Origin: Eledone cirrhosa
Lineage: Eukaryota
DNA length: 64,000 nt
NCBI GenBank assembly: GCA_964016885.1
Contig: OZ024746.1
Span: 35,650,001-35,714,000 of the forward strand
Reading direction: 5' to 3'
In this document: one piece after another, positions 14,537 through 45,420 of the stretch
Layout of the letters: each line of letters begins with the position of its first letter
Position numbering within the stretch: the stretch's first letter is position 1
Notes under the pieces: model-generated
The model's database searches: none
Seen by the model: the letters and a program-made list of their open reading frames with translations, nothing else
What the model was told of the DNA's origin: nothing
Position numbers and translations under genes: made by a program

Positions 14537-14736
14537 NNNNNNNNNNNNNNNNNNNNNNNNNNNNNNNNNNNNNNNNNNNNNNNNNNNNNNNNNNNNNNNN
14601 NNNNNNNNNNNNNNNNNNNNNNNNNNNNNNNNNNNNNNNNNNNNNNNNNNNNNNNNNNNNNNNNNNNNNNNNNNNNNNNNNNNNNNNNNNNNNNNNNNNN
14701 NNNNNNNNNNNNNNNNNNNNNNNNNNNNNNNNNNNN
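14537..14736. other. Assembly gap (200 N)
   Basis: Run of n characters. Confidence 1.
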
Positions 14737-14781
14737 ATTAAACATCTTTTGATCTTATATATATATTATAATATATGTATA

Positions 14782-16285
14782 TAACGAAGGAAATGTGGTA
14801 AGGAACCAGGTGGACCATAACGCACCAAAGTACTCAATAGTTGGGGTAGTAGAGTGGGTAATAGGAACCAGTAAGACCCCGACGGCTGAGCTCAAGCCGT
14901 TTCGACGGCTAATTCTGGACTAAATGAACATTTATCCTGGTATTTAAATAGCGATCTTCTCAAGGGGTAATTCCATATATGGTCAAAGTGATTGTCAAAA
15001 GTCAGTAGTAATTCTGTGATTGCAAATTAGTAGGGGATATGGTGGCTAAACCAGCCAGTAGGAGAAAAAGGGGAGGGGGTGAGTAGACCCAATCAAGCGT
15101 TGGTAGTGCCAGCTACAGCTGGGCAGGAGGTCAAAGAGGATACTGGGGAGGTGGAGGGGGAGGAAGTTGGAACGGTAGGTAGAACAATGAGGGTTAAAAA
15201 ATATATATGGAAGAAAAAATACTGAGAGTGAAGAAAAGCGAATAAGTGTAAAGAAAAAAGTAAAGCAAGTTCTACGACCTAAGTCTCTAGCTATTGTTAG
15301 GCTAGATAAATAAATAAATAAAGAAAGAAAGAAGTAAAGAAAGAAATAAAGAAATAACGAAATAAGTAAATGAACTAGGTGGGACGGATAGGCAACGACC
15401 CTTTTAAGAGGTATAAGTACGTAAATCATACGGTGACAGGTCAACAAATGGGGCCAAATACTAAGGAGACTACCACGAAATAAATAATAAAGGTTTCTAT
15501 CCCGGGCACAATGCCAGCAACCACCCAGTGCAGCAAAGTAAACTAGTACGAGATAATAATTCTGAGTCCCGAAAAAAATATATACTAATGCTAACTCTAA
15601 AAGATCTTAAACAAGCTACATGAAAGTTCGTACGAACTAAAGGTAGAATACGGAAAAATAAATTCAGAATCCACCCCGCCAAAAGAAAAGCGAAGAAAGA
15701 AATACTGAAACGAGAAAATAAGGCATAAGTGCCACTAAGAAATATAGAAGGCACGGAAAATAGTGGGAGCGGTCGGAAAAGGGGGCAAGTATCCGGGGTC
15801 TAAACCAACTGCTATAAAAAGCGGAGTCCGCCAAATCTATCATAGACTAGGGGAGGGGGTGGGGTACTAAGGCTACAAGGGGCCAAAGGGCAGCCTCGGG
15901 TGGTCGAGAAAAGACGCCGACAAAGAAGAAGAGCTGGGGTAGAAGGACTAAGGAGGGATGGGGGGAAGGAAATAAAGGAAGTGATAAAAGAATAAAAAGA
16001 AGATCTTACGTCTCCCTTGGCAAGCAGGGGTTACCCATTGCAATATCGGCTAGTGGGTTGTTATAGCCCTAGTCTACACCCCCCCCCCCCCGGGTCATTA
16101 TGGGGTTTGAGTGCGAGGTAAGTCCTACGCAATCTATGTTTACATGCAGTAACCAGTTCATCTTTCTTGTTTAGAGTTGGTCCGTCGAAAACAGCATTTG
16201 TAAAGTTTCCTCCGAGCATAAATTGCACGGACGGCGTCCTCCCGTGTAAGAATTGGCTCTGGACAGTAATCTCCAAGTGAGATCA
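14782..16285 (-). mobile_element. 5'-truncated Naiad-type Penelope-like element (end of GIY-YIG ORF, 3' UTR, pLTR)
   Basis: Homologous to 32165-33650 and encodes DLTWRLLSRANSYTGGRRPCNLCSEE..ELVTACKHR. TA-rich tracts lie at both ends. Confidence 0.88.
14876..14968 (-). ncRNA. Hammerhead ribozyme motif, U3-A8 core variant
   Basis: Minus strand reads ACCCC-TTGAGAA-GATCGCTA..TAGCCGTC-GAAA-CGGCT(tgagctc)AGCCG-TC|-GGGGT. Confidence 0.72.
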
Positions 16286-23764: not shown

Positions 23765-26700
23765 CTACAGGTTTATGTAAAGAGAAGGCCCATTCACACG
23801 GGCCATTCTCGCCACTTTCACCCACCTTTCATAAAAACGACTGGGGTGCAGCACCTCTCTCTCCATCCTGATCCTTCTTCCGAAATGATATCGGAAGAAA
23901 CGGACCAGTTGTTGGCCAGAGAGAAAGGTGCCTGACCTCAGTCCTTTCAGACGCGTCCACCATACAACCTCTTTCGCCATGGCTATTACGCACAGAAACA
24001 CCGCCTCTGCTTCATCTTTGAAGGGGGGAGGCGGCTTGATCATTACAATAGACTCGGTGGTCAACCGGATCGGTCCCACCCTTGACAGCAGTTGTTCGAC
24101 ATAGCCCCACAGATCGGCTACGCCCGAGCAGTGTACCAATGCGTGTGCAACGGTTTCCTCGTCGCACACGCATCTGGGACAGATCTTTTTGGCGGGGTCC
24201 CTACCCGGGCGCCCGTGTCTGTAGAGCCTTTCTCGAACGGGTAAAGCCCCTCGGTAGCACTGCCAGGCCAGGGACTTCTGGAAGTTGTCCATAGGTCCCG
24301 GGCTGAATGTCCTACCGAACAGGCCGGCTAGTTCGTCCTCCTCCATGTCTAGGGCTTCTCCGAGGGCGTCGTCGCACCTGCTGCGTACCAGCCCTTCTTT
24401 AGAATGTTGCGGTGGAGTCTCCACTGATAACCGGATCCGCCTGCCAGAGGGCGGTGAGCGCCTGGGCACACTCAGTGTGCCAGGCGCCCAGTTTTCTCGG
24501 TCTTTGCTTGACCCAGGATTGCAGCTTAGTGAGTGAGACGAGTCTGGGAAAGGTTCGTCTCACAAACGAGGCCCACACGGTTGTCCGGTGAGGAATACGT
24601 AGAGGTGCCGTAGCCTTAATGCGTGTTTACGCATCATTAGCCACGGCATCCCCAGCCCTCCTTTCGAAGGGTGTTGACAGCAGATGGATCTCCTCACCAT
24701 AGGAGCCCGCCCCTTCCAAAGGAATTGGAAGAGCGCGCGCTCCATCTTGGTGAGGGTTTCCCTTGGGCAGGGCACTACGGTCAGGCGGTAGTAGATGACG
24801 GACGCTATATAAGTGTTCGCCACCTCCGCCCGACCTTTCAGGGATAGTTTGCAACTGGCCCACTTCTGGGTCAGTGCAAACACCCTGTTCGTAACCACCG
24901 CCCAGTTTTTCTCCACCTGGAGGTCCGGTCCGAACCAGACCCCGAGCAACTTCACCGGGCCCTCCGTCCAGCGTCCGACGACGCCATCGGAGGGCATCGG
25001 TCTGCCCCTCCACGTGCCGAGTTGCAAACCGATCGACTTGTCCCGGTTCAGCTTAGCCCCTGTGAACTTTTCGTACTCCTCCAGTAAGGTGCCGACCACC
25101 TCGATTTCGGAGGCCGTCGACACCATTACTGTCACATCATCGGCGTAGGCTGACACCGCTTTCCGCAATCCCGGTTCCAAAGGGATGCCCTGCAACAACT
25201 CCAACTTCCGCAGTAGTGGCTCGAGAGTCAACACATACAGAAGGGAGGAGAGAGGGCACCCTTGTCGGATGGACCGCGCGATTTTGAACGGCTCCGAGAG
25301 GTAGCCGTTCACCTTGACCCTAGAGCAGATGCGGCTGCTGTGCATAGCAGTGATCCAGCCCCTGAAAACGGGTCCGAAGCCTGCCGCCGCTAGCACCGCA
25401 TCCAGGTAACCATGGTCGACCCTATCGAACGCCTTAGATTGATCCAAGTTGATCAGAGCCCCACCAAAGCCGGGTTCGTTCCCAACCCTCTCTATGATGT
25501 ATCGCATGAGGTGGAGGTTGTCATGGATGGACCTGGACGGGATAGCGCATGTCTGCGCATCTCCCACCAGGTTGCCCACGACAAGCGCAACCTCTTTGCT
25601 AGCACCTTGGCCAAAATCTGTAACTCTGTATTTAGCAGAGTTATGGGCCTGAAGTTACTTATTTCGTCCCCCTTGTTCTCGTCCTTCCTCACTAGCGTGA
25701 CTACGCCCTTGGTCACAGTACAGGGAATTCTCCCGTTCTGTTGCCAGTTGCAGTAGACCGCCTCGAGGAGATCGGGGAACAAGTCCGGCATAGCTAGATA
25801 TAATTCGTAAGGAAGACCATCGAGACCCGGGGATTTGCGTTTGCCGCATTGGCCCAGCACGTCTTCTATCTCAGCGGCCGAAATCGGCTCCTCGCAAGAC
25901 TTCGCCTCCCTGTCCGAGAGGCGCGGCAGGCCGTCGAGGTATGGACCGAAGTCCACGTTTCCAACCGGCTCCCCGCCCCTCCCGAACAGTCGGGCAAAGT
26001 GCCTTTGAAAGGCCTCACACATCTGCTTAGGCTCAAGAATCGCCCGTCCATCCAGGTCTCGCAAAGACCGGATGGTGGATTTAGTTCCACTGTTGGCCTC
26101 TGTCACGCGGGCCCAGCTAACAGCTTTGGCCCCCTCGTTCCCTAGAGCACGTATTTTACTTCGGACAACGCAGCCTTCGTGCTTCGCGTCGAAAAACTGG
26201 CTCAAAGCCGTTCTCGATGCTAGCACTCTGGCCACGTCGCCGCTTCTAATTGCCTCTTCTACTCTATCTATTAGCTCCCTTTCCTTCCTATTCCTATCCG
26301 CAGCTAGAACCTTACTAAATTCAATCGAGGCTACTCTAATCTCTCTCTTTAGAGATACCCACCACCTGCTGTTGACGATCGCTCCAGTCAACCGTTCCTT
26401 AACTAACGTACTAATCCGATTCCTGTAGGCTCTACTTGCCGGCAAGGACAAGTTGAGCTTCCAGTAACCGGGGCCCTGTCTATGCGTTCTATCAAGGTTG
26501 ACCATGCAGGTCACCAACTTGTGGTCTGAATAGCCAACCATGAGCATTTCTGGACAACTTAAAAAGTCCCTGTCCTTATTTCTAACTAAAAATCTATCTA
26601 GGTACGATCTAGATGATCCGCTGCGATTTGACCAAGACCAGGTTGGCACCGTCGGAAAATCTAGTCGAAATCTATCGGCCAGGTCAAATCGGCCGAGTAA

Positions 26701-27201
26701 CCCCTTGAGGCTGTTGCACCCCTCTCTATCGGGACATGCCCCTGCATAGTCCCAACGTGCATCCAGGATACCATTCCAATCCCCCACTAAAAGCAGGGAA
26801 CGGGACGTCCCTAGAAAAGACTCCAGACGCTGGAAAAAGTCGGGCCGCTCTGTCCCAAAAGGGGCATATGCGGCTATCAGCCTAAGGGCTCTACCTTCAC
26901 CACTGCCAAGGTCCAGCACCACCAGTCGACCCCCTGGGTCCAAGTGAACTATCTGTGTTGCAAGGCCCATATGTTTTTGCAGCAGAACGACAACCCCACC
27001 CCCACCTCCGGGCTGACAGAGAGATGCGTGCATCTCAAAGTCGTCAAAGGTGGGGGCTAGCTGTCGGATGCTGCTGATCCGGGCCTCGCAGATAACCATC
27101 ACATTTATAGATTGTGACCTGAGGTCATTTAGAAGCATTGCTTGCTTCCAAGACGAGCCCAGGCCACGCGCATTTAGACACCCTACTCTTAGCACAGCCA
27201 T
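23765..27201 (-). pseudogene. Tx1 ORF2: apurinic-like endonuclease, reverse transcriptase, C-terminal zinc finger (at least 2 frameshifts)
   Basis: APE motifs: GCLNARGL, GDWN, YLDRFLV, SDHK. RT motifs: KSPGLDG, NFRPITLLN, LDQSKAFDRVDH, RQGCPLS, YADD. Zinc finger: CPRC..ETVAHALVHC. Confidence 0.93.
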
Positions 27202-27225
27202 GTTGGTGGTAAAGAGAAAAGGCAC

Positions 27226-28852
27226 TTACCTCTCTGCGTCCCGGGAAACGGGCCGCTCAATTTCCATGCTGGTTGGGGATGGGTTGTTGGGTGGGGTTGT
27301 GGTTTGTGGAAGTGAAGGGGCATCGGTGTGTTGTGGGGTTGGGGTGTTTGTCGTTGAGTGGGTGTCTGGGTGGGGTGGGGGGGTGAAATTTTTTAGGAGG
27401 ACGCGGTTGATTGGTTTGACGCAGGGGGGGCCCACGTCCTCCGTGAAATTTATTTTCAGTGTTTTGTACAAGTGCATTGGGACTTTTATCATTTTCAAAT
27501 GAGGTAGTCCCACAGCAGTTATAAAGTTTGGCCCTTCAGTTTGGACCGAAGTATTTGCTGAAATTGTTTTCCGTAATTTTTTGTTGTCTGTGTTCATGTA
27601 TGTGTATTGTAATGTCTTTTTTTGTGTAGCAGTTAGTGTTGTGTGACAGGGAGGGGTGGTTTGTGTGTAGTTTGTGTTCTCTTGGGGGGGATTAAAGTTA
27701 ACATGTGTGTCTGTGGTGCGTCTCCTCTTCTTTCTTTTTACTTGTTGGAAGGGATCTTTTTCGTCTTGCGACGAAAGAGGTTCGTCTTCCTTGTTGGGTG
27801 GGAGGGGTATGTTTTCTGGTAGAGTTTGCGGTGTGCGTGTTTTTGTATTTGTTTTGGGTGGGACAGTATTCTGTGTTATTTTTTCACGTGTTTGTTGTTG
27901 TTGTTGTTGTGGTGGTGGTGGTGGGGTTGTTGGTTTTTGTTGTTGTTGTGGTTGTTTTTGTTGTTGTAGTTGGGGTGGTGTTGGTGTTGGTAGCAGTGTT
28001 TTTTCTGTGTGAGCTGGGGACAGGCAGCCCTCAGGTGACCTCTATTGCCACAGAGGTAACAGGAGGGACGCCTACCCTCCACAATAATGTTGAGGTGGGT
28101 ACGGTCATCCAGCATGACGCGCTCAGGGATTTGGGCGATGCGTTCTGGCCTTATTTGGGTCAGAACTTCGAGGCTCGTTCCACTGAACGCGTCGCCGGAT
28201 GCCTTCCCTATTGAGATGAGGTTGTCCTCGTCTAAATTGAGGAAACCGGTTAGTAACCACCAGTAGTTTATGTTTGGGGTGATGGTGGTTATCCATATCC
28301 TCTGGGTTTTTTTACCCATGTAGGTGGGGAAGAAGGTGTAGTGTGTGGACCGAATTGGCGACACAGAGTATTTTTTTGCCGCCAATTCGTCTTTCATCAA
28401 TATGGATAAACTCCCATAGAGTTTATCCTTTTGTATGAAAGTGATGTCTCTCATCGCGTCTTTCAAGACTAACTGAGTTTCCGCTTGAGATGGTTGCGCT
28501 GGTTTCTTTGTTTTATTTAAAATTGTTCGGAATACGACAGTTCGTAATTCCGTCTGTCTTTTTAGCTCCGGAGGTGAATGTATAGAAAACGATCCGTTTT
28601 CGCCAAAAGACACATATTTCTTGGCTTTTTCCAGCATTTCTTTTGCTTTTGAAATATCTTCCAGCACATAAGCGACTGATAATTTAGCCGTTTGTGCAAA
28701 AGATATTTTGTTTTCGTTTTGGATATTAGTATTGTTTTGTTTCTCGTCGTTTGAGTTGTTTTCATCTTTGTTGTTGTTGTTGTTTTTCTCGTTTCGTGTG
28801 TGGATACTTGTGACGTTTGTGTTGTTGTTGTTTTTGTTGTCTTTATCGTTGC

Positions 28853-28883
<31 letters not shown>

Positions 28884-29063
28884 GTTGTTTTCAAATTCTT
28901 GTGTAGTTGTGGCTACATCTAGTGGTCGGTCAACAGGTGAAGACAATTCTTCCTCTCTCTGACCTCTGCCTTTGGCATCTGCTGCTGTGACAGTGGCAGG
29001 GGGAAGCTGTGAGTATGACTTCCCCTTTCCTTCTTTGATTGATGGTGAAGATGCTTCAGCCAT
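27226..29063 (-). pseudogene. Tx1 ORF1 (gag-like, CCHC zinc knuckle), frameshifted in a low-complexity region
   Basis: Starts MAEASSP.., has a poly-Asn tract and IIVEGRRPSCYLCGNRGHLRAACP. It continues out of frame into the Pro/Thr-rich 27226-27597 frame. Confidence 0.8.
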
Positions 29064-29266
29064 TTTTCTCAAAATAGGGTTTTTCGAAGTTTTTCGAAAG
29101 ATAAAATGTTCACAATACTATTTCGCCCAAAGGCGCAGACTATTTTGAGAGACCGACCAGATCAAAATTTGACCTGGCAGTCCCTCTACAAAATGATACA
29201 AAAATGAAAGTTTACAGTTTACAATTTCCGTATGAATTTAAACAAAAACTTACCGAGCGAGCTCAG

Positions 29267-32092: not shown

Positions 32093-32255
32093 ACACACAC
32101 ACACACATATATATATATTCATATATATATATATATACACACACACGTATATATATATATATATCGAAGGAAATGTGGTAATGAACCAGGTGGACCATAA
32201 CGCACCAAAGTACTCAATACTTAGGGTAGTAGAGTGGGTAATAGGAACAAGTAAG

Positions 32256-32349
32256 TCCCCGACGGCTGAGCTCAAGCCGTCTCGACGGCTAATTCTGGAC
32301 TGAATGAAAATGTATTCTGGTATTTAAATAGCCGAGCTTATCAAGGGGT
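32256..32349 (-). ncRNA. U3-A8 hammerhead motif, probably inactivated (GAAA to GAGA)
   Basis: Same fold as 35785-35878 but with A14G. Confidence 0.55.
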
Positions 32350-33324
32350 AATTCCATATATGGTCAAAGAGATAATCGCCAGGATTGGTCACATCACAAG
32401 TTAGTATCTGTGATGGCAAATTGATGGTGGAAGGGGTAGCTGAACCTGCCGGTAGGAGAAAAGGGGAGAGGGGGTCGAGTAGACCCATTCATGCGTTGGT
32501 AGTACCGGCTACAGCTGGATGTGAGGTCAAAGAGGCTACTGGAGAGGGGGAGGGGGAGGAAGTTGAAACGGTAAGTAGAACAATGACGGGTAAAACTATA
32601 AAAAGTACTGAGAGAGAAAAAAAATAAGCGAAGTCTGGTTACTAAGACTTAAGTCTCTCGCTATTGCTAGGCTAAAGAAATACATAAATAAATAGGTAAA
32701 CAAATGAGTGATTAAAAGAATAGATAAATAAATAAAAAAAAAAAATGAATGAAGAATAAAAAAATAAATAAAAATAAACTAGGTGGGACGGAGATAAAGG
32801 GACCCTTATACGCGGTATAGGTGCGTGTATCGTACAGTGACGGGTCAACAAAGGAGGGGGGGGGGGCGAAATACTAAAGAGACTACCACGAAATAATAAA
32901 GGTTTTTACCCCAATCACAGGGCCAGCAACCACCACTTTAAGGGTACCGCCACGAAACAAAAAGTCTTATACAAGCTACATGAAAGATCGTACGAAGTAA
33001 AAGTAAAGAGCGGAAAATTAATAAAGAAACACCCCCCCACCCCCCCACACCTCCAAAAAAAGGGAAAAAGAGGAAAACTGGATAAACGAGAAATTAAAGA
33101 AGAGATGCCACTAAGATATATAGAAGGCACGGAAAAAAGGGACAGCGGTCGGAGAAGGGGAAAGTATCCGAAGTCTAACACCTCTGCTATAAAAAGCGGA
33201 GTCAGCCAAATCTATCATAGAATAGTGGAGGTGGTGGTGGTGCTGAAGCTACAAAGGACCGAGGGGCTACCTCGGGTGGGCGAGAAAAAGACGACGACAA
33301 AGAAAGGGAACTGGGGTAGAAGGA

Positions 33325-35599
33325 CTAGGGAGGGATGGGGGAAGGATGAAATATAGAAGAAGCGATAAAAGAATGTAAAAGAAGATCGTACGTCTCCATT
33401 GGCAAGCAGGGGTTACCCCTTACAAAATAGGCAAGTGGGGGTGTTATAGCCCTAGCCGGGTCATTATGGGGTTTGAGGGCGAGGTAAGTCTTACGTAATC
33501 GCTGTTTACATGCAGTAACCAGTTCATCTTTCTTGTTTAGGAGTTGGTCCGTCGATAACAGCATTTGTAAAGTTTCCTCCGAGCATAAATTGCACGGACG
33601 GCGTCCTCCCGTGTAAGAGTTGGCTCTGGACAGTAATTTCCAAGTGAGATCATAGTTGATGTTGTTGTCCTTGAGGTGCCATATGTGGCCCGAAAGTGTA
33701 GTGGCGTGACGCCGGGCCGGGTTTCGGAAGGTATGTCTGTGTTGGTATAGCCGGGTCTTGAAGTCACATGCGGTTAATCCTATATAAGCTTTGTTGGTGC
33801 CCGTGCTCACGTTGCACTGGTAGATCACATTACGGTCTCTGCATCTGTTGTCGAGGGGGCAACTGGATCTATCAGGACAGTTGCACCTCCTGGTCGGCGC
33901 TCCACTGCTATTTAGGTTGTTTCTTCCATCGGGGTTGAGTATTTTGTTGTTGGAGGAGACGATGTTTTGTGCGAAGTCAGGTGTAGTGCTGTAAGAGAGT
34001 TTGATGGTATTTTTGTTAATTATGTTATGGTAGCGGTGTTGCGGTGGGAAGTGTTTTTCAATGAGCCCAAAGAAAATTTTCCCGATGGGAGTTGTCACCT
34101 CGTCGTTGTGGGGAGGATTGAACCATGTTACATTGCGTGAGCTGCGGTGTCGCCTGCTGGCTCCGCTAATGGGAGCTGGACAGTAGGATATTTCCTCCCG
34201 GAAGCCACTCCGCTTGAGGGCCTGGTTGTAGTAAGGCGCATGTTCATCGAATATCTTCTCATTAGCTGACAAACGGGATATGCGGAGGGAGATGTTTTTG
34301 ACCAGGTTGTTGGTGATGTTCCTAGGATGGTTAGATCGGCGGTGGATGTAGTGCAGGTTGTCATTGGGTTTCCTGTATGGGTAGTACAGGTCATTATTGA
34401 GATCGAGGGTAACGTACAGGAAATTAACTCGGGTCAGGGACGTTTGTAGGGTTATTTTAAATCCCCAGTCGCGGAAGAAGCTGATTAATTGTTTACGGAC
34501 CCGATCTGTACTATTGGGGTTGTACCCTTTAAGGGTAAGGAGCCCATCATCACGGTACAATCCACCACCGAAAGCAGGAAACGTATCGGTGAGTTTGGCT
34601 ATAAGGAATAATCCTATAAGATCAGTGACCTCCGCCGAATCCGTAGCGCCCATGCTGACGTCGAAGCGTGAGTCGGGAGCTCTTTTTACCCATTTGGAGT
34701 TGTCAAAGAGTAAGACTGTCTTCCCATTCGTGGAGGATGATTTTTCTTTCCTGGTCGGTGATGGGCACGAGTGCTTCGGCGAAGTCCATGGCTGCAGTAA
34801 GTAGCGGTAAGGTGATAGAAGCATCGTAGCTCTCTATGTCGAACTGGATAAATTTAGTGTCTCGTTTATCCTCCATATTGCTGAACCATGAGATAACTTC
34901 CTGGGTGTTGATCCATAGGCTAAGTCTGACGTATTGCTTGACTTTCGGTATCACGCGGTCTAGGATTTTTTTGCTGATTCTCCCTATGTCGGACTTCGTT
35001 GGGTTTATAAGCCTGATAGATGGTTTACGGTCGAAATCGGATTTGTGGTCCTTCAGTGTGAAGTAAGGTGTCCGCGGGTCTAGGGGTTCGGTGCGGTCGG
35101 CGACCCCGAGGCTGGAGGTAATTTGTTGTCCATCTCGATTAATGTCCTCGATGCATGAGTGGTTAGCCTTTTTATAGGTGGAGTTTAGGCTGCTCCTGAT
35201 CAGTGTGTGGTATCTGTCGGGGTTGACAAAGTATAGGTTCCCAGTTTTATCCGAATGTACCATGATGTCATTGGTGTTATCATACTCTGTTATGTTTCTA
35301 CGGAGTTTTTGTAGGAATCGGTTGTGTCTGGGTTTGAATTTAAGGTTATTGACCAGTTGGAAGAGGTCATTCTCGAAGGGTGAGAGCAAAGGTTTCGGTG
35401 GGGGAGATTTGTAGGTAATAAATCCGAATGTCTCCTTGGTACCGAAGTCGTGATTGTCGCAAAATCTGTCGTAGAAAAAAGTTCTCCATCTAAGTTTTTT
35501 CGCAAATAGATTGATTTTTTGCGTGAGCATCCGAAGGTAAAGTTTTTTCGGTGGGATTGGGATGTTCTTGGTAGAGAAGTCGATGTTGTGTTTTCGCAT
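33325..35599 (-). pseudogene. Naiad-type RT + GIY-YIG endonuclease (one frameshift near 34725)
   Basis: Motifs: FSTKNIPIP, SDKT, FTLKDHK..RLINPTKS, FIQFDIESY, FDVSMG, GLYRDD, CNC..CPL..C, VIYQC..YIG..FKTRLYQH and CNLC. The clade label comes from remembered motifs, not a tree. Confidence 0.88.
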
Positions 35600-35784
35600 G
35601 GTGCGGGTGAGAGAAATTGAGCTTAGCGGAAAAGTCTGGGTACGGCGTGGTAAGGTCGGAAAGTGCTCTACTACGGGGATAGGAGCTAGATAACGAATGA
35701 AATGTGGTAAGGAACCAGGTGGATCATAACGCACCAAAGTACTCAATACTTAGGGTAGTAGAGTGGGTAATAGGAACAAGTAAG

Positions 35785-35878
35785 ACCCCGACGGCTGAGC
35801 TCAAGCCGTTTCGACGGCTAATTCTGGACTGAATGAACATTTATTCTGGTATTTATATAGCCGAGCTTATCAAGGGGT
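35785..35878 (-). ncRNA. Hammerhead ribozyme motif, U3-A8 core variant
   Basis: ACCCC-TTGATAA-G(ct)CGGCTA..TAGCCG(t)C-GAAA-CGGCT(tgagctc)AGCCG-TC|-GGGGT. Confidence 0.75.
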
Positions 35879-36457
35879 AATTCCATATATGGTCAAAGAG
35901 ATAATCGCCAGGATTGGTCACATCACAAGTTAGTAGTAAATCATGATGGCAAATTGGTGGAGGAAGGGGTAGCTGAACCTGCCGGTAGGAGAAAAGGGGA
36001 GAGGGGGTGGAGTAGACCCATTCATGCGTTGGTAGTGCCGGCTGCAGCTGGGTGTGAGGTCAAAGAGGCTACTGGGGAGGGGGAGGGGGAGGAAGTCGAA
36101 ACGGTAAGTAGAACAATGACGGGTAAAACTATAAAAAGTACTGAGAGAGAAAAAAAATAAGTGAAGTCTGGTTACTAAGACTTAAGTCTCTCGCTATTGC
36201 TAGGCTAAAGAAATACATAAATAAATAGGTAAACAAATAAGTGAATAAAAGAATAGATAAATAAATAAAAAAAAAATATATAATGAAGAATAAAAAAATA
36301 AATAAAAATAAACTAGGTGGGACGGAGATAAAGGGATCCTTATACGAGGTATAGGTGCGTGTATCGTACGGTGACGTAGGGTGATTTTAAAACCCCAGTC
36401 GCGGAAGAAGGTGATTAATTGTTTACGGACCCGATCTGTACTACGGGGGTTGTACCC

Positions 36458-38760
36458 TTTAAAATAATCCTACAAACGTCCCTGACCCGAGTTAATTTCC
36501 TGGACGTTACACTCGATCTCAATAATGACCGGTATTACCCATACAGGAAACCCAATGACAACCTGCACTACATCCACCGCCGATCTAACCATCCTAGGAA
36601 CATCACCAACAACCTGGTCAAAACATCTCCCTCCGCATATCCCGTTTGTCACCTAATGAGAAGATATTCGATAAACATGCGCCTTACTACAACCAGGCCC
36701 TCAAGCGGCGTGGCTTCCGGGAGGAAATATCCTACTGTCCAGCTCCCATTAGCGGAACCAGCAGGTGACACCGCCGTTCACGCAATGTAACATGGTTCAA
36801 TCCTCCCCACAACACCGAGGTGACAACTCCCATCGGGAAAATTTTCTTTAGGCTCATTGAAAAACACTTCCCACCACAACACCGCTACCACAACATATTT
36901 AACAAAAATACCATCAAACTCTCTTACAGCACTACACCTAGCTTCGCACAAAACATCGTCTCCTCCAACAACAAAAAACTCAACCCCGATGGAAGAAACA
37001 ACCTAAATAGCAGTGGAGAGCCGACCAGGAGGTGCAACTGTCCTGATAGATCCAGTTTCCCCCTCGACAACAGATGCAGAGACCGTAATGTGATCTACCA
37101 GTGCAACGTGAGCACGGACACCTACAACAAAGCTTATATAGGATTAACCGCATGTGACTTCAAGACCCGGCTATACCAACACAGACATACCTTCCGAAAC
37201 CCGGCCCGGCGTCACACCACTACACTTTCGGGCCACATATGGGACGGGACCTCAAGGACAACAACATCAACAAGATCTCACTTGGAAATTACTGTCCAAA
37301 GCCAACTCTTACACGGGAGGACGCCGTCCGTGCAATTTATGCTCGGAGGAAACTTTACAAATGCTGTTTTCGACGGACCAACTCCTAAACAAGAAAGATG
37401 AACTGGTTACTGCATGTAAACAGCGATTACGTAAGACTTACCTCGCCCTCAAACCCCATAATGACACACGGGGGGGGGGGGGGGGGGTAGACTAGAGCTA
37501 TAACACCCCCACTTGCCTATTTTGTAAGGGGTAACCCCTGCTTGCCAATGGAGACGTAAGATCTTCTTTTACATTCTTTTATCGCTTCTTCTATATTTCA
37601 TCCTTCCCCCCATCCCTCCCTAGTCCTTCTACCCCAGTTCCCTTTCTTTGTCATCGTCTTTTTCTCGCCCACCCGAGGTAGCCCCTCGGACCTTTGTAGC
37701 TTCAGCTCCACCCCCCTCCTCTATTCTATGATAGATTTGGCTGACTCCGCTTTTTATAGCATAGGTGTTAGACTTCGGATACTTTCCCCCCTTCTCCGAC
37801 CGCTGTCCCTTTTTTCCGTGCCTTCTATATTTCTTAGTGGCATCTTTGCTTTAATTTTTCGTTTATCCAGTTTTCCTCTTATTACCTTTTTTTGGAGGGG
37901 GGGGGGGGGTTTCTGTATTAATTTTCCGTTCTTTACTTTTACTTCGTACGATCTTTCATGTAGCTTGTATAAGACTTTTTGTTTCGTGGCGGTACCCTTA
38001 GAGTTAGCACGAGTATTTTTTTGCGGGTCCCCGAACTATATTCTCGTACTAGTTTACTTTCTTGCTCTGGGTCGTTGCTGGCCCTGTGATTGGGGTAAAA
38101 ACCTTTATTATTTCGTGGTAGTCTCTTTAGTATTTCGGGCCCTCCTTTGTTGACACGTCACCGTACGATACACGCACCTATACCTCGTATAGGGTCCCTT
38201 TATCTCCGTCCCACCTAGTTTATTTTTATTTATTTTTTATACTTCATTATATATTTTTTTTAAATTTATTTATCTATTCTTTTATTCACTTATTTGTTTA
38301 CCTATTTATTTATGTATTTCTTTAGCCTAGCAATATCTAGAGACTTAAGTCTTAGTAACCAGACTTCGCTTATTTTTTTCTCTCTCTCAGTACTTTTATA
38401 GTTTTACCCTTCATTGTTCTACTTACCGTTTCGACTTCCTTCCCCTCCCCCTCCCCAGTAGCCTCTTTGACCTCACATCCAGCTGTAGCCGGTACTACCA
38501 ACGCATGAATGGGTCTACTCCACCCCCTCACCCTTTTTCTCCTACCGGCAGGTTCAGCTACCCCTTCCCCCACCAATTTGCCATCACAGATTTACTACTA
38601 ACTTGTGATGTGACCAATCCTGGCGATTATCTCTTTGACCATATATGGAATTGCCCCTTGATAAGCTCGGCTATATAAATACCAGAATAAATTTTCATTC
38701 AGTCCAGAATTAGCCGTCGAAACGGTTTGAGCTCAGCCGTCGGGGTCTTACTTGTTCCTA
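36458..38760 (+). mobile_element. Inverted, 5'-truncated copy of the Naiad-type element
   Basis: Reverse complement of about 34460-32245 (RT thumb, GIY-YIG, 3' UTR, pLTR). It is frameshifted and ends at ttcctat|(TA)n. Confidence 0.92.
38653..38746 (+). ncRNA. Hammerhead ribozyme motif, U3-A8 core variant
   Basis: GCCCC-TTGATAA-GCTCGGCTA..TAGCCGTC-GAAA-CGGTT..AGCCG-TC|-GGGGT. The substitutions produce G-U pairs. Confidence 0.72.
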
Positions 38761-38870
38761 TATATATATATATATATATATAATGAAAAATTGAACAGGG
38801 ACAGAACAGAGAGGCAGTACGATAAATGTTTCTTAAATTCACGCTCAGGAGAGTGGAGGGTAGGTGGGGG

Positions 38871-40259: not shown

Positions 40260-43057
40260 CTAAAGGAATAAGGGTGGGGAGTTCAGGCCGGGGGGAGTGT
40301 GGGTCTGTAAGATGAAGATAGTACGTTGTTCGACCGTAAGGCGATGGGCGGGTGTTCCGTGGCACTGGAGTAGGCCACAGACTGTGAGATGGCGTGCGGA
40401 GTGTCCAGGGCCACCAAAGTGGCGGGCGATGGGGGAACTGCCCCGAGACGAATGTCCCGGAGGTGCTCCGTGACTCGGTCCGCCAGGCGACGTCCCGTCT
40501 GTCCGACATAAGTCGCTCTGCACTCCGTGCAACGAAGTCCGTAGACTAGGTTGGAGGAGGTGCAGCGGAAGGCATGCCGGACCGAGAGAGGGTGGCCGTT
40601 GGGACCCTGGAAGGTGGTGGTGTTGGTGATGTGGGGACAGGTGTTGTAGCGGGGCCTAGAACAGGGGAAGGAACCGGGGGTGGGGGACGGAGCGTGGGTT
40701 GGGGGGTAGGGAGCTGTGGACGAGGAGGGTGCGGAGATTGCGTGCGCGTTTGAAGGAGGGGATTGGTGGGGTTGGGAATAAGTGGGAGGTGGAGGGGTCG
40801 GACTGGAGGCGTCGGAAGAGGCGGCGGATGGTGTAGTGGAGGGGTAAGGTGGAGGGGTGGTAGGCGATGGGGAAGGGGAGACGGTGGGTGTGCGGTGGCG
40901 TGGAGTGAGGATGGTGGAGCGGGGGATAGCACGGGCGCGGGTGAGAGCGGTGTGGACGAGAGAGGGGGGTAACCTCTGTGGATGAAATGGCTGACTAGGG
41001 AAAGGGCCTGGGACTCAAAGTCAGCATCTCGGCTACAGAGGCGCCGGATCCTGAGAAGTTGGGAGTAGGGAATGGAGAGTTTAGTGTGGGCGGGGTGGGA
41101 AGAGGTGAAGTCGAGGTAAGTGTGGGAGTCGGTGGGTTTGAAGAAGGCGGAGGTGACGAGGGAGTGGTGGGAGGGGTCGAAGGCGACGGAGATATCCAAG
41201 AAGTGGACGTGGGTGGTGGAGATAGAGGTTGTGAAGTGGAGGGAGGGGTGGAAGGAGCAGAAGAAGGAGAGAAAGGAGTCGAGCTGTACTCGGGTGAGGG
41301 TCGTGGCTCCGATACAGTCGTCAATGTAACGACCGTGCAGTTCGGGTGTGGGGCCGGTGTACTGGGCAAAGATTTGGGCCTCAACATGGCCAACAAAAAG
41401 GTTGGCATAGTTCGGGCCCATTCTTGTGCCCATGGCTACCCCCGTGACCTGTTGGTAAAACTCACCCGAGAAGGAGAAACAATTTAGGGTGAGGACCAGC
41501 TCGGCGAGGCGAAGGAGGGTGGGGGTGGAGGGAATGGGTGAGCGGCGAAGATCGAGGTAGTGTTTGAGGGCGCGAAGGTCGTCGGCGTGGGGGATGACGG
41601 TATAGAGGGACTTGATGTCTAGGGTGAAGAGGAATGGCTGAGGGCCGGGTAGGTAGGTGAAGGAGTCGAAAAGGCGCAGGGCGTGGTTGGTGTCAGAGAT
41701 GTGGGAGGGGAGGGTGGTGACAAGGGGGGCGAGGAGGGAGTCGAGAAAGGCGGAGATGAGTTCGGTGGGGCAGTTGCAAGCGGAGACGATGGGGCGGCCG
41801 GGGTTGTCGGGTTTGTGGAGTTTGGGGAGGAAGTAGATGGTGGGGGTGCGGGGGGTGCGGACGATGAGGTGGGAAGCGGTGGGGGGGGGGAGGGAGGAGG
41901 CGATAAGGTCTTTGATGGTGGAGGAGACTTGTTGTTGGTAGAGGGAGGTGGGATCGGAGGGTAGAGGGCGGTAAAAGAGGGGGTTACAGAGCTGCCTGAG
42001 GGCCTCGGCCGTGTAGAGGTCCGCGCGCCATACCACCACGGCGCCTCCCTTGTCCGCCGGTTTGATGACGATGTCATCTCGGCTACGGAGGGAGCGGAGA
42101 GCGAGGAGTTCGCCCCGTGAAATGTTGTGCCGTTTGGAACGGTGGCGGAACTCGAAACGATTTACTGCGCTACGGCTGGCATCGACGAAGGCGTCCAGGG
42201 TGCTAAATTGCCCTGGGGCCGGCGTCCAAGAAGATGGTCGTCGGCCCAGGGCGAGAAACGGGTCTGGGGCGTCCGGAGCCTGTAGCGTTCGGCTGAAATG
42301 TGCCTGTAGCTTAGTGCGTCGCACGAATCGCTCGACTTCCGTTCGGGTGCGGAACTCGTCGCTGAGCGGAGTTTGGGGTATGAAGCGAAGGCCTCTACTA
42401 AGGAGTGAGCGCTCAGGTGCGGAGAGGGGGAGGTCATGGGGTATGGTGACAACAAGGGGTGGGGTTTGGGTGTTTGGGGAGGGAAGGGAGGGTGTGGTGA
42501 GTGGTGGAGATTGGGTGGGGGTGTGGGTCGGGGGAGAGAAGGGGAGTGGTGGGCGTATGGGGATGGGTGGGTGGTGGTGGATGCGGTGGGGGGGGGGAGG
42601 AGTGAGTGTAGCTTGCGGGCTTTGGTGGAGCTGAGGAACGAGAAGAGGTTGTGGTTGAGTTTGTGGATGAAGGAGAGGATGGCTTGGGCGGGGAGGGGGT
42701 GGCAGGTGGAGTAAAGCGGAGGAGGGTGGGGGTCGGTTGGTGGTCAAGTAGGCGGAGGGTGGAACGGGAGGCGCGGATGGAGTTGCGCATCAGAAGGCGT
42801 GAGGATCGGGTGAGGATACGTTGCGCGGAGGGGGAGGCAGCGGGGGAGGGGTGGAAGTGTAGACGGAAGCCAAGGGGGATAAGGTGGAGGCGGAGGCAGT
42901 GGCTGAGGAAATGGATGTGGCTGGAGTGCCGGGTTTTGGCGAAGAGAAGGTAGGAGATTTGAAGGGCGGAGGGGAAATAGCAGGGTGGAAGGAGGGGGGT
43001 GAGGAAAAGTTTGAGGCGATTATGGAGTTGGTGGAGAAAGGATCTCAGGTTGGCCAT
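40260..43057 (-). pseudogene. Neptune-type RT + Cys-rich linker + GIY-YIG endonuclease, several frameshifts
   Basis: Motifs: HIHFLSHCL..IPLGF, IKPADKGGAVVVW, YFLPKLHK..GRPIVS, LDIKSLYT, GVAMGT, RYIDD, KPTD, then NLVYGLRCTECRATYVGQTGRRLADRVTEH (read manually near 40555-40460) and EQRTIFILQT..PPGLN. Confidence 0.9.
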
Positions 43058-43573
43058 GATGGGCGTTGGGTGGAAGCAGGGGGAGGGATGAGAGGGGGGG
43101 GGGTGTGAAGCGGGGTGGAGTGAACGAAGGGGTGAGTGCGAAGGATAGGCAGAGACGGGGAAGGGAAAAAGAAACAGAAAAACGTGGGGAGGGGGGGGGA
43201 GTAAACACCGGAAAATTAAAGACAAAAAATCATAAAGGTAATAACACAGGCGATCGTGAACAAAAAATCATAGAAATACAATTGTAAGAACACAGGCAAA
43301 GAATCATATACGGAAAAAAAGGGGTACGGTAACAAAATCAAACAGAGGTAATGCGTGGAAGGAAAGACGAAGTGTGGGAAGGTGTGTAAAGTTCGGAGAA
43401 AGGTCACGGCGGATTAGATCGGGGTTGAGCCGGTTGTTAAGTTAAGTTCCAAGGATGGAGGCCGTGTGAGCGTGTGTTATGTATAATGAAGAATTGAACA
43501 GGGACAGAACAGAGAGGCAGTACGATAAATGTTTATTAAATTCACGCTCAGGAGGGTGGGGGGTAGGTGGGGG

Positions 43574-45210: not shown

Positions 45211-45417
45211 TGTTTAACCCCGACGGCAGAAAATGTTTAACCCCGACGGCAGAGCTCAAGCCGTTTCGGCAGCTATTTCAGTCCAGAAATAACCGTTGAA
45301 ACGGCTTGAGCTCTGCTATCGGGGTTAAACATTTTCCTATTACCCACTCTACTACCCTAAGCATTGAGTACTCTGGTGCGGTATGGTCCATCTGGTTCCT
45401 TATCACACTTCCATCGT

Positions 45418-45420
<3 letters not shown>
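45211..45420 (+). mobile_element. Short fold-back fragment of a Naiad-subfamily pLTR 3' end
   Basis: Homologous to 35695-35835. An internal hairpin spans about 45234-45331, the first ~20 bp are duplicated, and only the 3' half of the HHR remains. It lies between TA tracts. Confidence 0.8.

What the first reader, a model, noticed from the sequence alone, without database searches (positions are those of the whole stretch)
35785..35878. Non-canonical hammerhead (UUGANAA core, U3-A8 pair) in the Naiad-type pLTR
Seen: four copies (14876, 32256, 35785, 38653) read ACCCC-TTGA[T/G]AA-stem II with ~37 nt loop-GAAA-CGGCT..AGCCG-TC-GGGGT. The free position N7 varies (T or G), stem II differs between subfamilies but still pairs, and the other helix changes are mostly G-U. 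Known: C3-G8 is a tertiary Watson-Crick pair that tolerates U3-A8. A CUGANGA pattern search would miss this motif. Stem III is full-length, unlike minimal PLE HHRs, yet is near-palindromic (GAGCTC), so monomer and dimer folds are both possible.
Basis: partly seen in the sequence, partly recalled or inferred. Interest (0 to 1): 0.8.

Follow-up and report, generated by a model that had tools for sequence, protein, structure and literature searches.

The report
Hammerhead ribozyme in Hydra retrotransposon
A jumping gene with thousands of copies in this animal genome ends in a small RNA motif shaped like a self-cutting hammerhead ribozyme with an already known U-A core variant, and its family tree shows that the element kept multiplying for a period with a mismatched, likely inactive core, which suggests that the cutting is helpful but not essential.

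Summary
The motif is real: a type I hammerhead with a UUGANAA core, once per unit in the pseudo-LTR, about 190 nt before the ATG. Two claims fail. The element is not a Naiad: RT then C-terminal GIY-YIG, DKT, RWR and CxCX5C place it in the Hydra clade, which is known to carry hammerheads. U3-A8 is not new: it is in print for natural hammerheads and for a Penelope-like element (PLE); this scan also noted one on other DNA. What is new lies in the genome-wide copies. Older relatives carry canonical C3-G8, so U3-A8 is a true covariation. But 1,578 exact matches carry C3 (99 of 100 listed with A8, a mismatch reported inactive elsewhere) against 5,147 with U3. The endonuclease tree is a ladder, old U3-A8 to C3.A8 to young U3-A8 (U3 as one clade rejected), with the ORF under purifying selection throughout. 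A sister Hydra family (12,247 matches) carries U4A. Folding predicts a competing inactive hairpin in the window's subfamily and a hammerhead dimer through a conserved GAGCUC. Cleavage is untested. Verdict: known kind of ribozyme, unusual natural mutant series; interest 0.5.

The parts
35785..35878 (-). Type I hammerhead, focal copy (subfamily with core UUGAUAA), in the upstream pseudo-LTR of the main element
35874..35878 (-). Stem I, 5' strand (pairs with 35785-35789)
35867..35873 (-). Core 3-9 UUGAUAA: U3 at 35873, N7 at 35869, A8 at 35868
35813..35866 (-). Stem II (G-C, 2x1 internal loop, 6 bp) with 37-nt loop II (35821-35857)
35809..35812 (-). Core G12-A13-A14-A15.1
35791..35809 (-). Stem III, 6 bp, 7-nt loop holding the palindrome GAGCTC (35797-35802)
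35804..35819 (-). Predicted competing hairpin (3' strand of stem II paired with 5' strand of stem III, GAA in its loop); inactive fold
35789..35790 (-). Predicted cleavage site, after C17 (35790) of GUC; untested
   Evidence: hammerhead consensus applied
33325..35599 (-). Hydra-type ORF, RT then GIY-YIG endonuclease, broken by one frameshift near 34700-34730 in this copy
32158..32842 (-). Downstream pseudo-LTR (95% to 35687-36376), ending at (TA)n; holds the hammerhead 32256-32349 with A14G
36458..38761 (+). Inverted 5'-truncated copy of the element; hammerhead 38653-38746, C17 at 38741; ends at (TA)n
14771..16285 (-). 5'-truncated copy of a younger subfamily between (TA)n runs; hammerhead 14876-14968 (UUGAGAA, one G lost in stem II)
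45212..45420 (.). Short inverted pair of fragments of an older subfamily, holding only the 3' half of the hammerhead and the tail

Best explanation
A type I hammerhead motif with a U3-A8 core sits once per 3.5-kb unit in the pseudo-LTR of a Hydra-clade Penelope-like retrotransposon, where it likely cuts read-through or tandem transcripts after GUC into unit-length RNAs, likely slowly and often as a dimer, and this cutting is likely useful but not essential to the element. Shown: anatomy, position, copy counts, covariation, and a lineage history C3-G8, U3-A8, C3.A8, U3-A8 with an ORF under purifying selection. Predicted: in the window's subfamily the monomer prefers an inactive hairpin by 2-3 kcal/mol while the dimer restores the three-way junction through GAGCUC; in the youngest subfamily the monomer folds as a hammerhead. 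Inferred from the literature model: unit RNAs would be ligated to circles and copied past the junction, giving tandem arrays and 3' ends beyond the cut site.
For: One motif per 3,531-bp unit in a 4.5-unit array at 99.9% identity, last unit ending about 19 nt past the cut site at (TA)n. 29 of 29 other loci picked by protein alone have an intact U3-A8 core, 24 of 29 with a 717-721 aa ORF. Double changes at two pairs, C3-G8/U3-A8 and G-C/A-U in stem II; 96.5% of 342 cells paired, 0 of 500 shuffles as high, slid controls 19-58% (kin inflate this). Among seven younger subfamily consensuses 26 of 27 structured 3'-half positions are invariant against 57 of 88 loop and flank positions (p 0.001); N7 takes all four bases. 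U3-A8 cores are reported active in vitro. C3.A8: 1,578 matches, paraphyletic trunk of the tree, pN/pS 0.05-0.24; a natural CUGANAA core did not cleave. Dimer fold -63.1 against 2 x -24.9 kcal/mol.
Against: No cleavage assay and no RNA ends were seen. The strict hammerhead fold has probability 0.003 in the focal monomer. Search patterns fixed U4, G5, A6 and A9, so their conservation is partly built in. Stem I is only 5 bp and no loop I-loop II contact was identified. A trunk that tolerates C3.A8, and a sister family with U4A, fit a motif that no longer cuts at all equally well. The oldest canonical group rests on 5 aligned copies, one tied to an ORF at 64-72% identity.
Confidence: 0.55

Rival explanations
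1. Cleavage was needed throughout and the C3.A8 forms still cut: either C3 pairs with G7 in a shifted register (no spacer, extra A before stem II), or a U3-A8 partner RNA cuts the C3.A8 RNA in a mixed dimer, or a protein rescues the core.
For: 94 of 100 listed C3 matches have G7, whereas older U3 subfamilies have A, C or U there. In the predicted dimer one RNA's catalytic strand faces the other's cut site. GAAA and UC stay in the consensus of the C3.A8 subfamilies (36 of 42 copies keep both). The lineage returned to U3.
Against: G7 in all C3 subfamilies can be plain descent from one ancestor. A natural CUGANAA core was inactive (its N7 was not seen). No precedent for the shifted register was found.
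Confidence: 0.2
2. The motif descends from a ribozyme but is kept only as a folded 3'-end signal or dimer contact for the element's RT-endonuclease; it no longer cuts.
For: Core defects in two abundant families (C3.A8; U4A in 99 of 100 listed of 12,247); competing inactive fold; the 3' half alone is about eight times more common than the 5' core (52,348 against 6,725); PLE hammerheads cleave poorly in vitro.
Against: The only changes at 3 and 8 at either end of the series give Watson-Crick pairs, N7 alone is free, and the youngest subfamily gained changes that favour the hammerhead fold (stem pair probabilities 0.75 against 0.33). Excess 3' halves follow from 5' truncation.
Confidence: 0.2
3. 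A chance GC-rich hairpin cluster read as a hammerhead.
For: No Rfam hammerhead hit; weak folding z-scores.
Against: Canonical CTGAGGA core in older relatives, covariation, position matching known Hydra hammerheads near the 3' end.
Confidence: 0.03

Closest known systems
U3-A8 minimal hammerheads of the Schistosoma mansoni Cercyon PLE (Cervera and de la Pena 2014, PMC4209133)
   Same: Type I motif in the pseudo-LTR of a PLE, U3-A8 core, long helix II, 5-bp helix I, conserved G10.1-C11.1, palindromic helix III region
   Different: Here helix III is a real 5-6 bp stem with a 7-9 nt loop, loop II is 37-39 nt, and the host element is Hydra
Hydra-clade PLE hammerheads (Craig et al. 2021, PMC8557442, File S2)
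   Same: Near the 3' end of a C-terminal-EN element inserted in (TA)n; sense strand
   Different: All 26 listed rows have CUGANGA (their descriptor required it), 3-4 bp helix III with 1-3 nt loops and loops II of 3-10 nt; the unit here is 3.5 kb against under 3 kb for most
Natural core-variant hammerheads (Perreault et al. 2011, PMC3088659)
   Same: U3-A8 covariation seen in nature
   Different: Scattered examples; no lineage series through a mismatch is described in the section read
Naiad PLEs (Craig et al. 2021)
   Same: (TA)n targets, pseudo-LTRs, inverted truncated copy at the 5' end
   Different: Naiads have an N-terminal endonuclease, CxC, DKA and no canonical hammerhead; none fits

Membership tests
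Naiad PLE | GIY-YIG endonuclease N-terminal to RT | tested here: not met
   intact 717-aa ORF starts with RT-side motifs and ends with GIY-YIG (definition)
Naiad PLE | DKG motif changed to DKA | tested here: not met
   reads DKT
Naiad PLE | Insertion in fingers domain | tested here: inconclusive
   spacing between RT motifs A and B matches Hydra rows by eye; no Naiad alignment made
Hydra PLE | Single ORF, RT then C-terminal GIY-YIG | tested here: met
Hydra PLE | RWK and DKT motifs | tested here: met
   RWR and DKT (definition)
Hydra PLE | CxCX5C linker; CxxC and CxH around conserved E and N | tested here: met
   CNCPDRSIC, CNLCSEE, NKK..CKH
Hydra PLE | Insertion into (TA)n; tandem and inverted copies | tested here: met
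Hydra PLE | Placement in the Hydra clade of an RT tree | not tested
   published proteins were only compared by eye, with colinear motifs throughout
Hydra PLE | Canonical CUGANGA hammerhead | tested here: not met
   U3-A8 or C3.A8 in the young subfamilies; CUGAGGA only in the oldest relatives
Type I hammerhead ribozyme | Three helices around U4 G5 A6 N7 A9, G12 A13 A14, A15.1-U16.1, H17 | tested here: met
Type I hammerhead ribozyme | Watson-Crick pair 3-8 | tested here: met
   U-A in the four window copies and 98 of 100 listed U3 matches; broken in 99 of 100 listed C3 matches
Type I hammerhead ribozyme | Hammerhead is the preferred monomer fold | tested here: inconclusive
   not for the focal subfamily (3.2 kcal/mol above the minimum), yes for the youngest; dimer restores it
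Type I hammerhead ribozyme | Score above an Rfam hammerhead model threshold | tested here: not met
   no hit at E up to 5
Type I hammerhead ribozyme | Self-cleavage after N-U-H | not testable with these tools
   needs an assay or RNA ends

The most novel reading that the evidence does not exclude
The trunk of an autonomous Penelope-like lineage lost the catalytic 3-8 pair of its hammerhead (C3.A8), went on producing on the order of a thousand insertions through several subfamilies, then restored it as U3-A8, while a sister family reached over 12,000 matches with U4A: a natural experiment showing that PLE hammerhead cleavage is dispensable or tunable, or else that such cores are rescued by dimers, proteins or a shifted register not yet described.
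Probability: 0.5. Interest if true: 0.7.

Novelty: new variant of a known kind. Interest (0 to 1): 0.5.

Why it matters
What PLE hammerheads are for is stated to be unclear, with the suggestion that they may only parasitise the elements (PMC8557442). This family offers a dated, natural allelic series in one scaffold (C3-G8, U3-A8, C3.A8, U3-A8 again, plus U4A in a sister family) that can be assayed directly. It also shows that CUGANGA descriptors would miss thousands of hammerhead-like motifs in one genome. The U3-A8 core itself is not news.

Tried and rejected
Rfam scan: no hammerhead. Pfam: 0 families on 4 window proteins. No RNA holder was listed among 6 runs, so expression and RNA ends stay open. 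Contigs laid on the motif showed U3-to-C at about 24% depth, which led to the C3 subfamilies, but missed the known N7 variation, so that table was not used as a conservation test; runs of two other organisms gave too few contigs to use. DNA around relatives in other species was not obtained, so conservation across species is untested; 2,049 protein relatives were found, best full-length about 42-43%, with no useful names. My guessed stem II for an older canonical relative found 2 unrelated matches. My first descriptor found no hammerhead in the sister family because it demanded U4. A first flank tree dropped 53 of 170 diverged rows and was discarded; the tree rooted on the sister family had an unreliable root; the motif-only tree placed the root weakly (53-54%). 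The Fisher test (p 1e-7) is inflated by my patterns and is not relied on. The consensus of the oldest group misfolds and is built from 5 decayed copies. Papers not held: PMC1986816, PMC5785218, PMC2271363, PMC4447102, PMC2733889. Rejected: Naiad; chance motif; strict conservation of U3-A8.

Full report
1. Observation. The four copies exist at the stated places. The focal copy reads, on the minus strand, stem I (5 bp), UUGAUAA, stem II (G-C, 2x1 loop, 6 bp) with a 37-nt loop, GAAA, stem III (6 bp, 7-nt loop), UC, stem I. The 32256 copy has A14G, the 14876 copy a private deletion in stem II, the 38653 copy two G-U changes. Rfam gives no hammerhead hit among 140 weak matches, and folding z-scores are weak.

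2. The element. The window holds a main copy (ORF 35599 to 33325, one frameshift), 690-bp pseudo-LTRs at 95%, an inverted truncated copy and (TA)n ends. The 3.0-Gb genome holds many intact copies: of 29 other loci picked by protein alone, 24 have a 717-721 aa ORF and all 29 have a TTGAGAA core upstream. One array has 4.5 units of 3,531 bp at 99.9% or more, one hammerhead per unit, 190 nt before the ATG, ending about 19 nt past the cut site. The protein is RT followed by GIY-YIG, with RWR, DKT, CxCX5C, CxxC and CxH. These define Hydra, whereas Naiads have an N-terminal endonuclease, CxC and DKA (PMC8557442: passages and the Hydra section). By eye the protein is colinear with the published Hydra proteins (supplement passages). 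No tree with references was made.

3. What is in print. U3-A8 occurs in natural hammerheads and such cores are reported active in vitro (PMC3088659, passages and section 8). It occurs in a PLE: about 1,300 hits in S. mansoni (PMC4209133, parts 1-2 of 4), a paper that also reports low activity, dimers and the circle model (also PMC6765202, passages and part of section 11). All 26 Hydra rows of File S2 have CUGANGA, 3-4 bp helix III and short loops, but the descriptor demanded that core. A natural CUGANAA core did not cleave (PMC8490949, passages). Also opened: bioRxiv 10.64898/2026.07.22.740005 (part 1 of 5), PMC7151607, PMC3884650, PMC6257768, PMC11014351 (term searches), adding nothing. An earlier scan note (e1-7786987) reports a U-A core in a PLE of another genome. 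Searches found no report of a PLE lineage with C3.A8 or U4A; Lunse 2017 and Przybilski 2007 were not held and the supplements of Cervera 2014 were not read, and they may bear on this.

4. Genome-wide variation. Exact pattern counts: 5,147 with U3 (98 of 100 listed have A8, 2 G8; N7 is A, C, G or U) and 1,578 with C3 (99 of 100 listed have A8; 94 have G7); reversed controls 0. Counts include both arms of inverted insertions and some decay, so insertions are fewer. The C3.A8 copies form subfamilies with their own flanks. A pattern on an older stem II found 200 matches; of the 100 listed I counted by eye about 78 U3-A8, 9 C3-G8, 7 U3.G8, 1 U3.C8, 5 spurious and no C3.A8. One copy of the oldest type lies about 1 kb behind an ORF 64-72% identical to the intact protein. 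From 142 motifs (7 dropped as truncated or decayed) nine subfamily consensuses were made; divergence from consensus falls from 0.11 (C3-G8) through 0.10 and 0.055 (U3-A8), 0.036 and 0.025 (C3.A8) to 0.01-0.023 (young U3-A8). On 21 chosen copies, 96.5% of cells pair and two pairs change on both sides. For the seven younger consensuses, positions outside the search pattern give 26 of 27 invariant in the structured 3' half against 57 of 88 in loop and flanks. GAGCTC is in all nine consensuses and in 66 of 81 unfiltered A8 copies.

5. Order of events. A tree of 675 columns of the C-terminal coding region (31 copies plus the oldest-type copy as outgroup; at most 5 per type kept from the first 122 loci) is a ladder: old U3-A8, then nine C3 copies (eight C3.A8, one C3-G8) as a grade with several nodes at 95-100, then young U3-A8 as one clade (100/99). 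U3 as one group is rejected (p-AU 1.5e-49), as is C3 as one clade (1.2e-6); the groups came from core labels, but I had seen a similar tree, and the outgroup branch is long. Consensus pN/pS between subfamilies is 0.05-0.24, with no stop in the C3.A8 consensuses. So the trunk itself ran through the mismatch and reverted. The single C3-G8 copy at the base of the grade may be decay or a brief intermediate.

6. Folding. Stems II and III share sequence, so a hairpin between them can bury GAA. In the focal copy this fold is 3.2 kcal/mol below the hammerhead; it dominates the C3.A8 and focal subfamilies (0.58-0.88), is minor in the old U3-A8 ones (0.01 or less) and falls to 0.25 in the youngest, whose minimum is the hammerhead. 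Two-molecule folding gave the double three-way junction in 4 of 4 consensuses tried, 10-17 kcal/mol below two monomers, through stem III and GAGCUC. These are predictions without tertiary terms.

7. Sister family. A second Hydra family, 53-55% identical in protein, ends in a hammerhead with CAGAAGA (U4A), 3-bp stem II and 5-bp stem III: 12,247 matches, 99 of 100 listed with that core. Its predicted minimum fold is not a hammerhead.

8. Mechanism. Most likely (0.55): a weak, often dimeric self-cleaver that trims multimeric transcripts to unit length, useful enough to keep the core and to restore the 3-8 pair, but not essential. Rivals: cleavage always needed and C3.A8 rescued (0.2); no cleavage, structural signal only (0.2); chance (0.03). 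Shown: sections 1, 2, 4, 5, 7. Predicted: section 6. Inferred: cleavage, circles, dispensability.

9. Verdict. It works like a PLE type I hammerhead and meets its sequence features; activity is untested. It belongs to a Hydra, not a Naiad, element. U3-A8 is known; the lineage through a mismatch and the U4A sister family are, as far as searched, unreported. New variant of a known kind, interest 0.5.

Noticed in passing
L063-L092 (e.g. L067:1501-3630 ORF, motif about 970 nt behind it): Second Hydra family (709 aa, 53-55% to the first) whose 3' hammerhead has CAGAAGA (U4A); 12,247 exact matches.
   Followed up: partly
window 45212-45420; L123-L152: Very many short, often inverted copies begin inside loop II: 26 of 30 keep only 9-34 nt before G12 (measure runs short in diverged copies), and the 3' half has 52,348 matches against 6,725 for the 5' core. 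A truncation hotspot or a self-amplifying short element.
   Followed up: partly
window 35883-35892: A 10-nt palindrome lies just upstream of stem I and is kept in most subfamilies while neighbours change; possible second dimer contact or hairpin.
   Followed up: no
window 35687-35768: Copies end either about 18-20 nt or about 100 nt past the predicted cut site; the longer tail of about 80 nt is usually at one end only.
   Followed up: partly
L124:1435-1530 and L257: A more distant relative with CTGATGA, a different loop II and the same stem III and stem I; possibly the oldest layer of the family.
   Followed up: no
L067:895-965: Another hammerhead-like repeat end with a damaged core, followed by a second CTGATGA and short hairpin.
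   Followed up: no
window 23765-29117 (-) and 40283-43267 (-): Clusters of long broken reading frames, probably other retroelements; not examined.
   Followed up: no
window 14537-14736: Assembly gap of 200 N beside the 14771-16285 copy.
   Followed up: no
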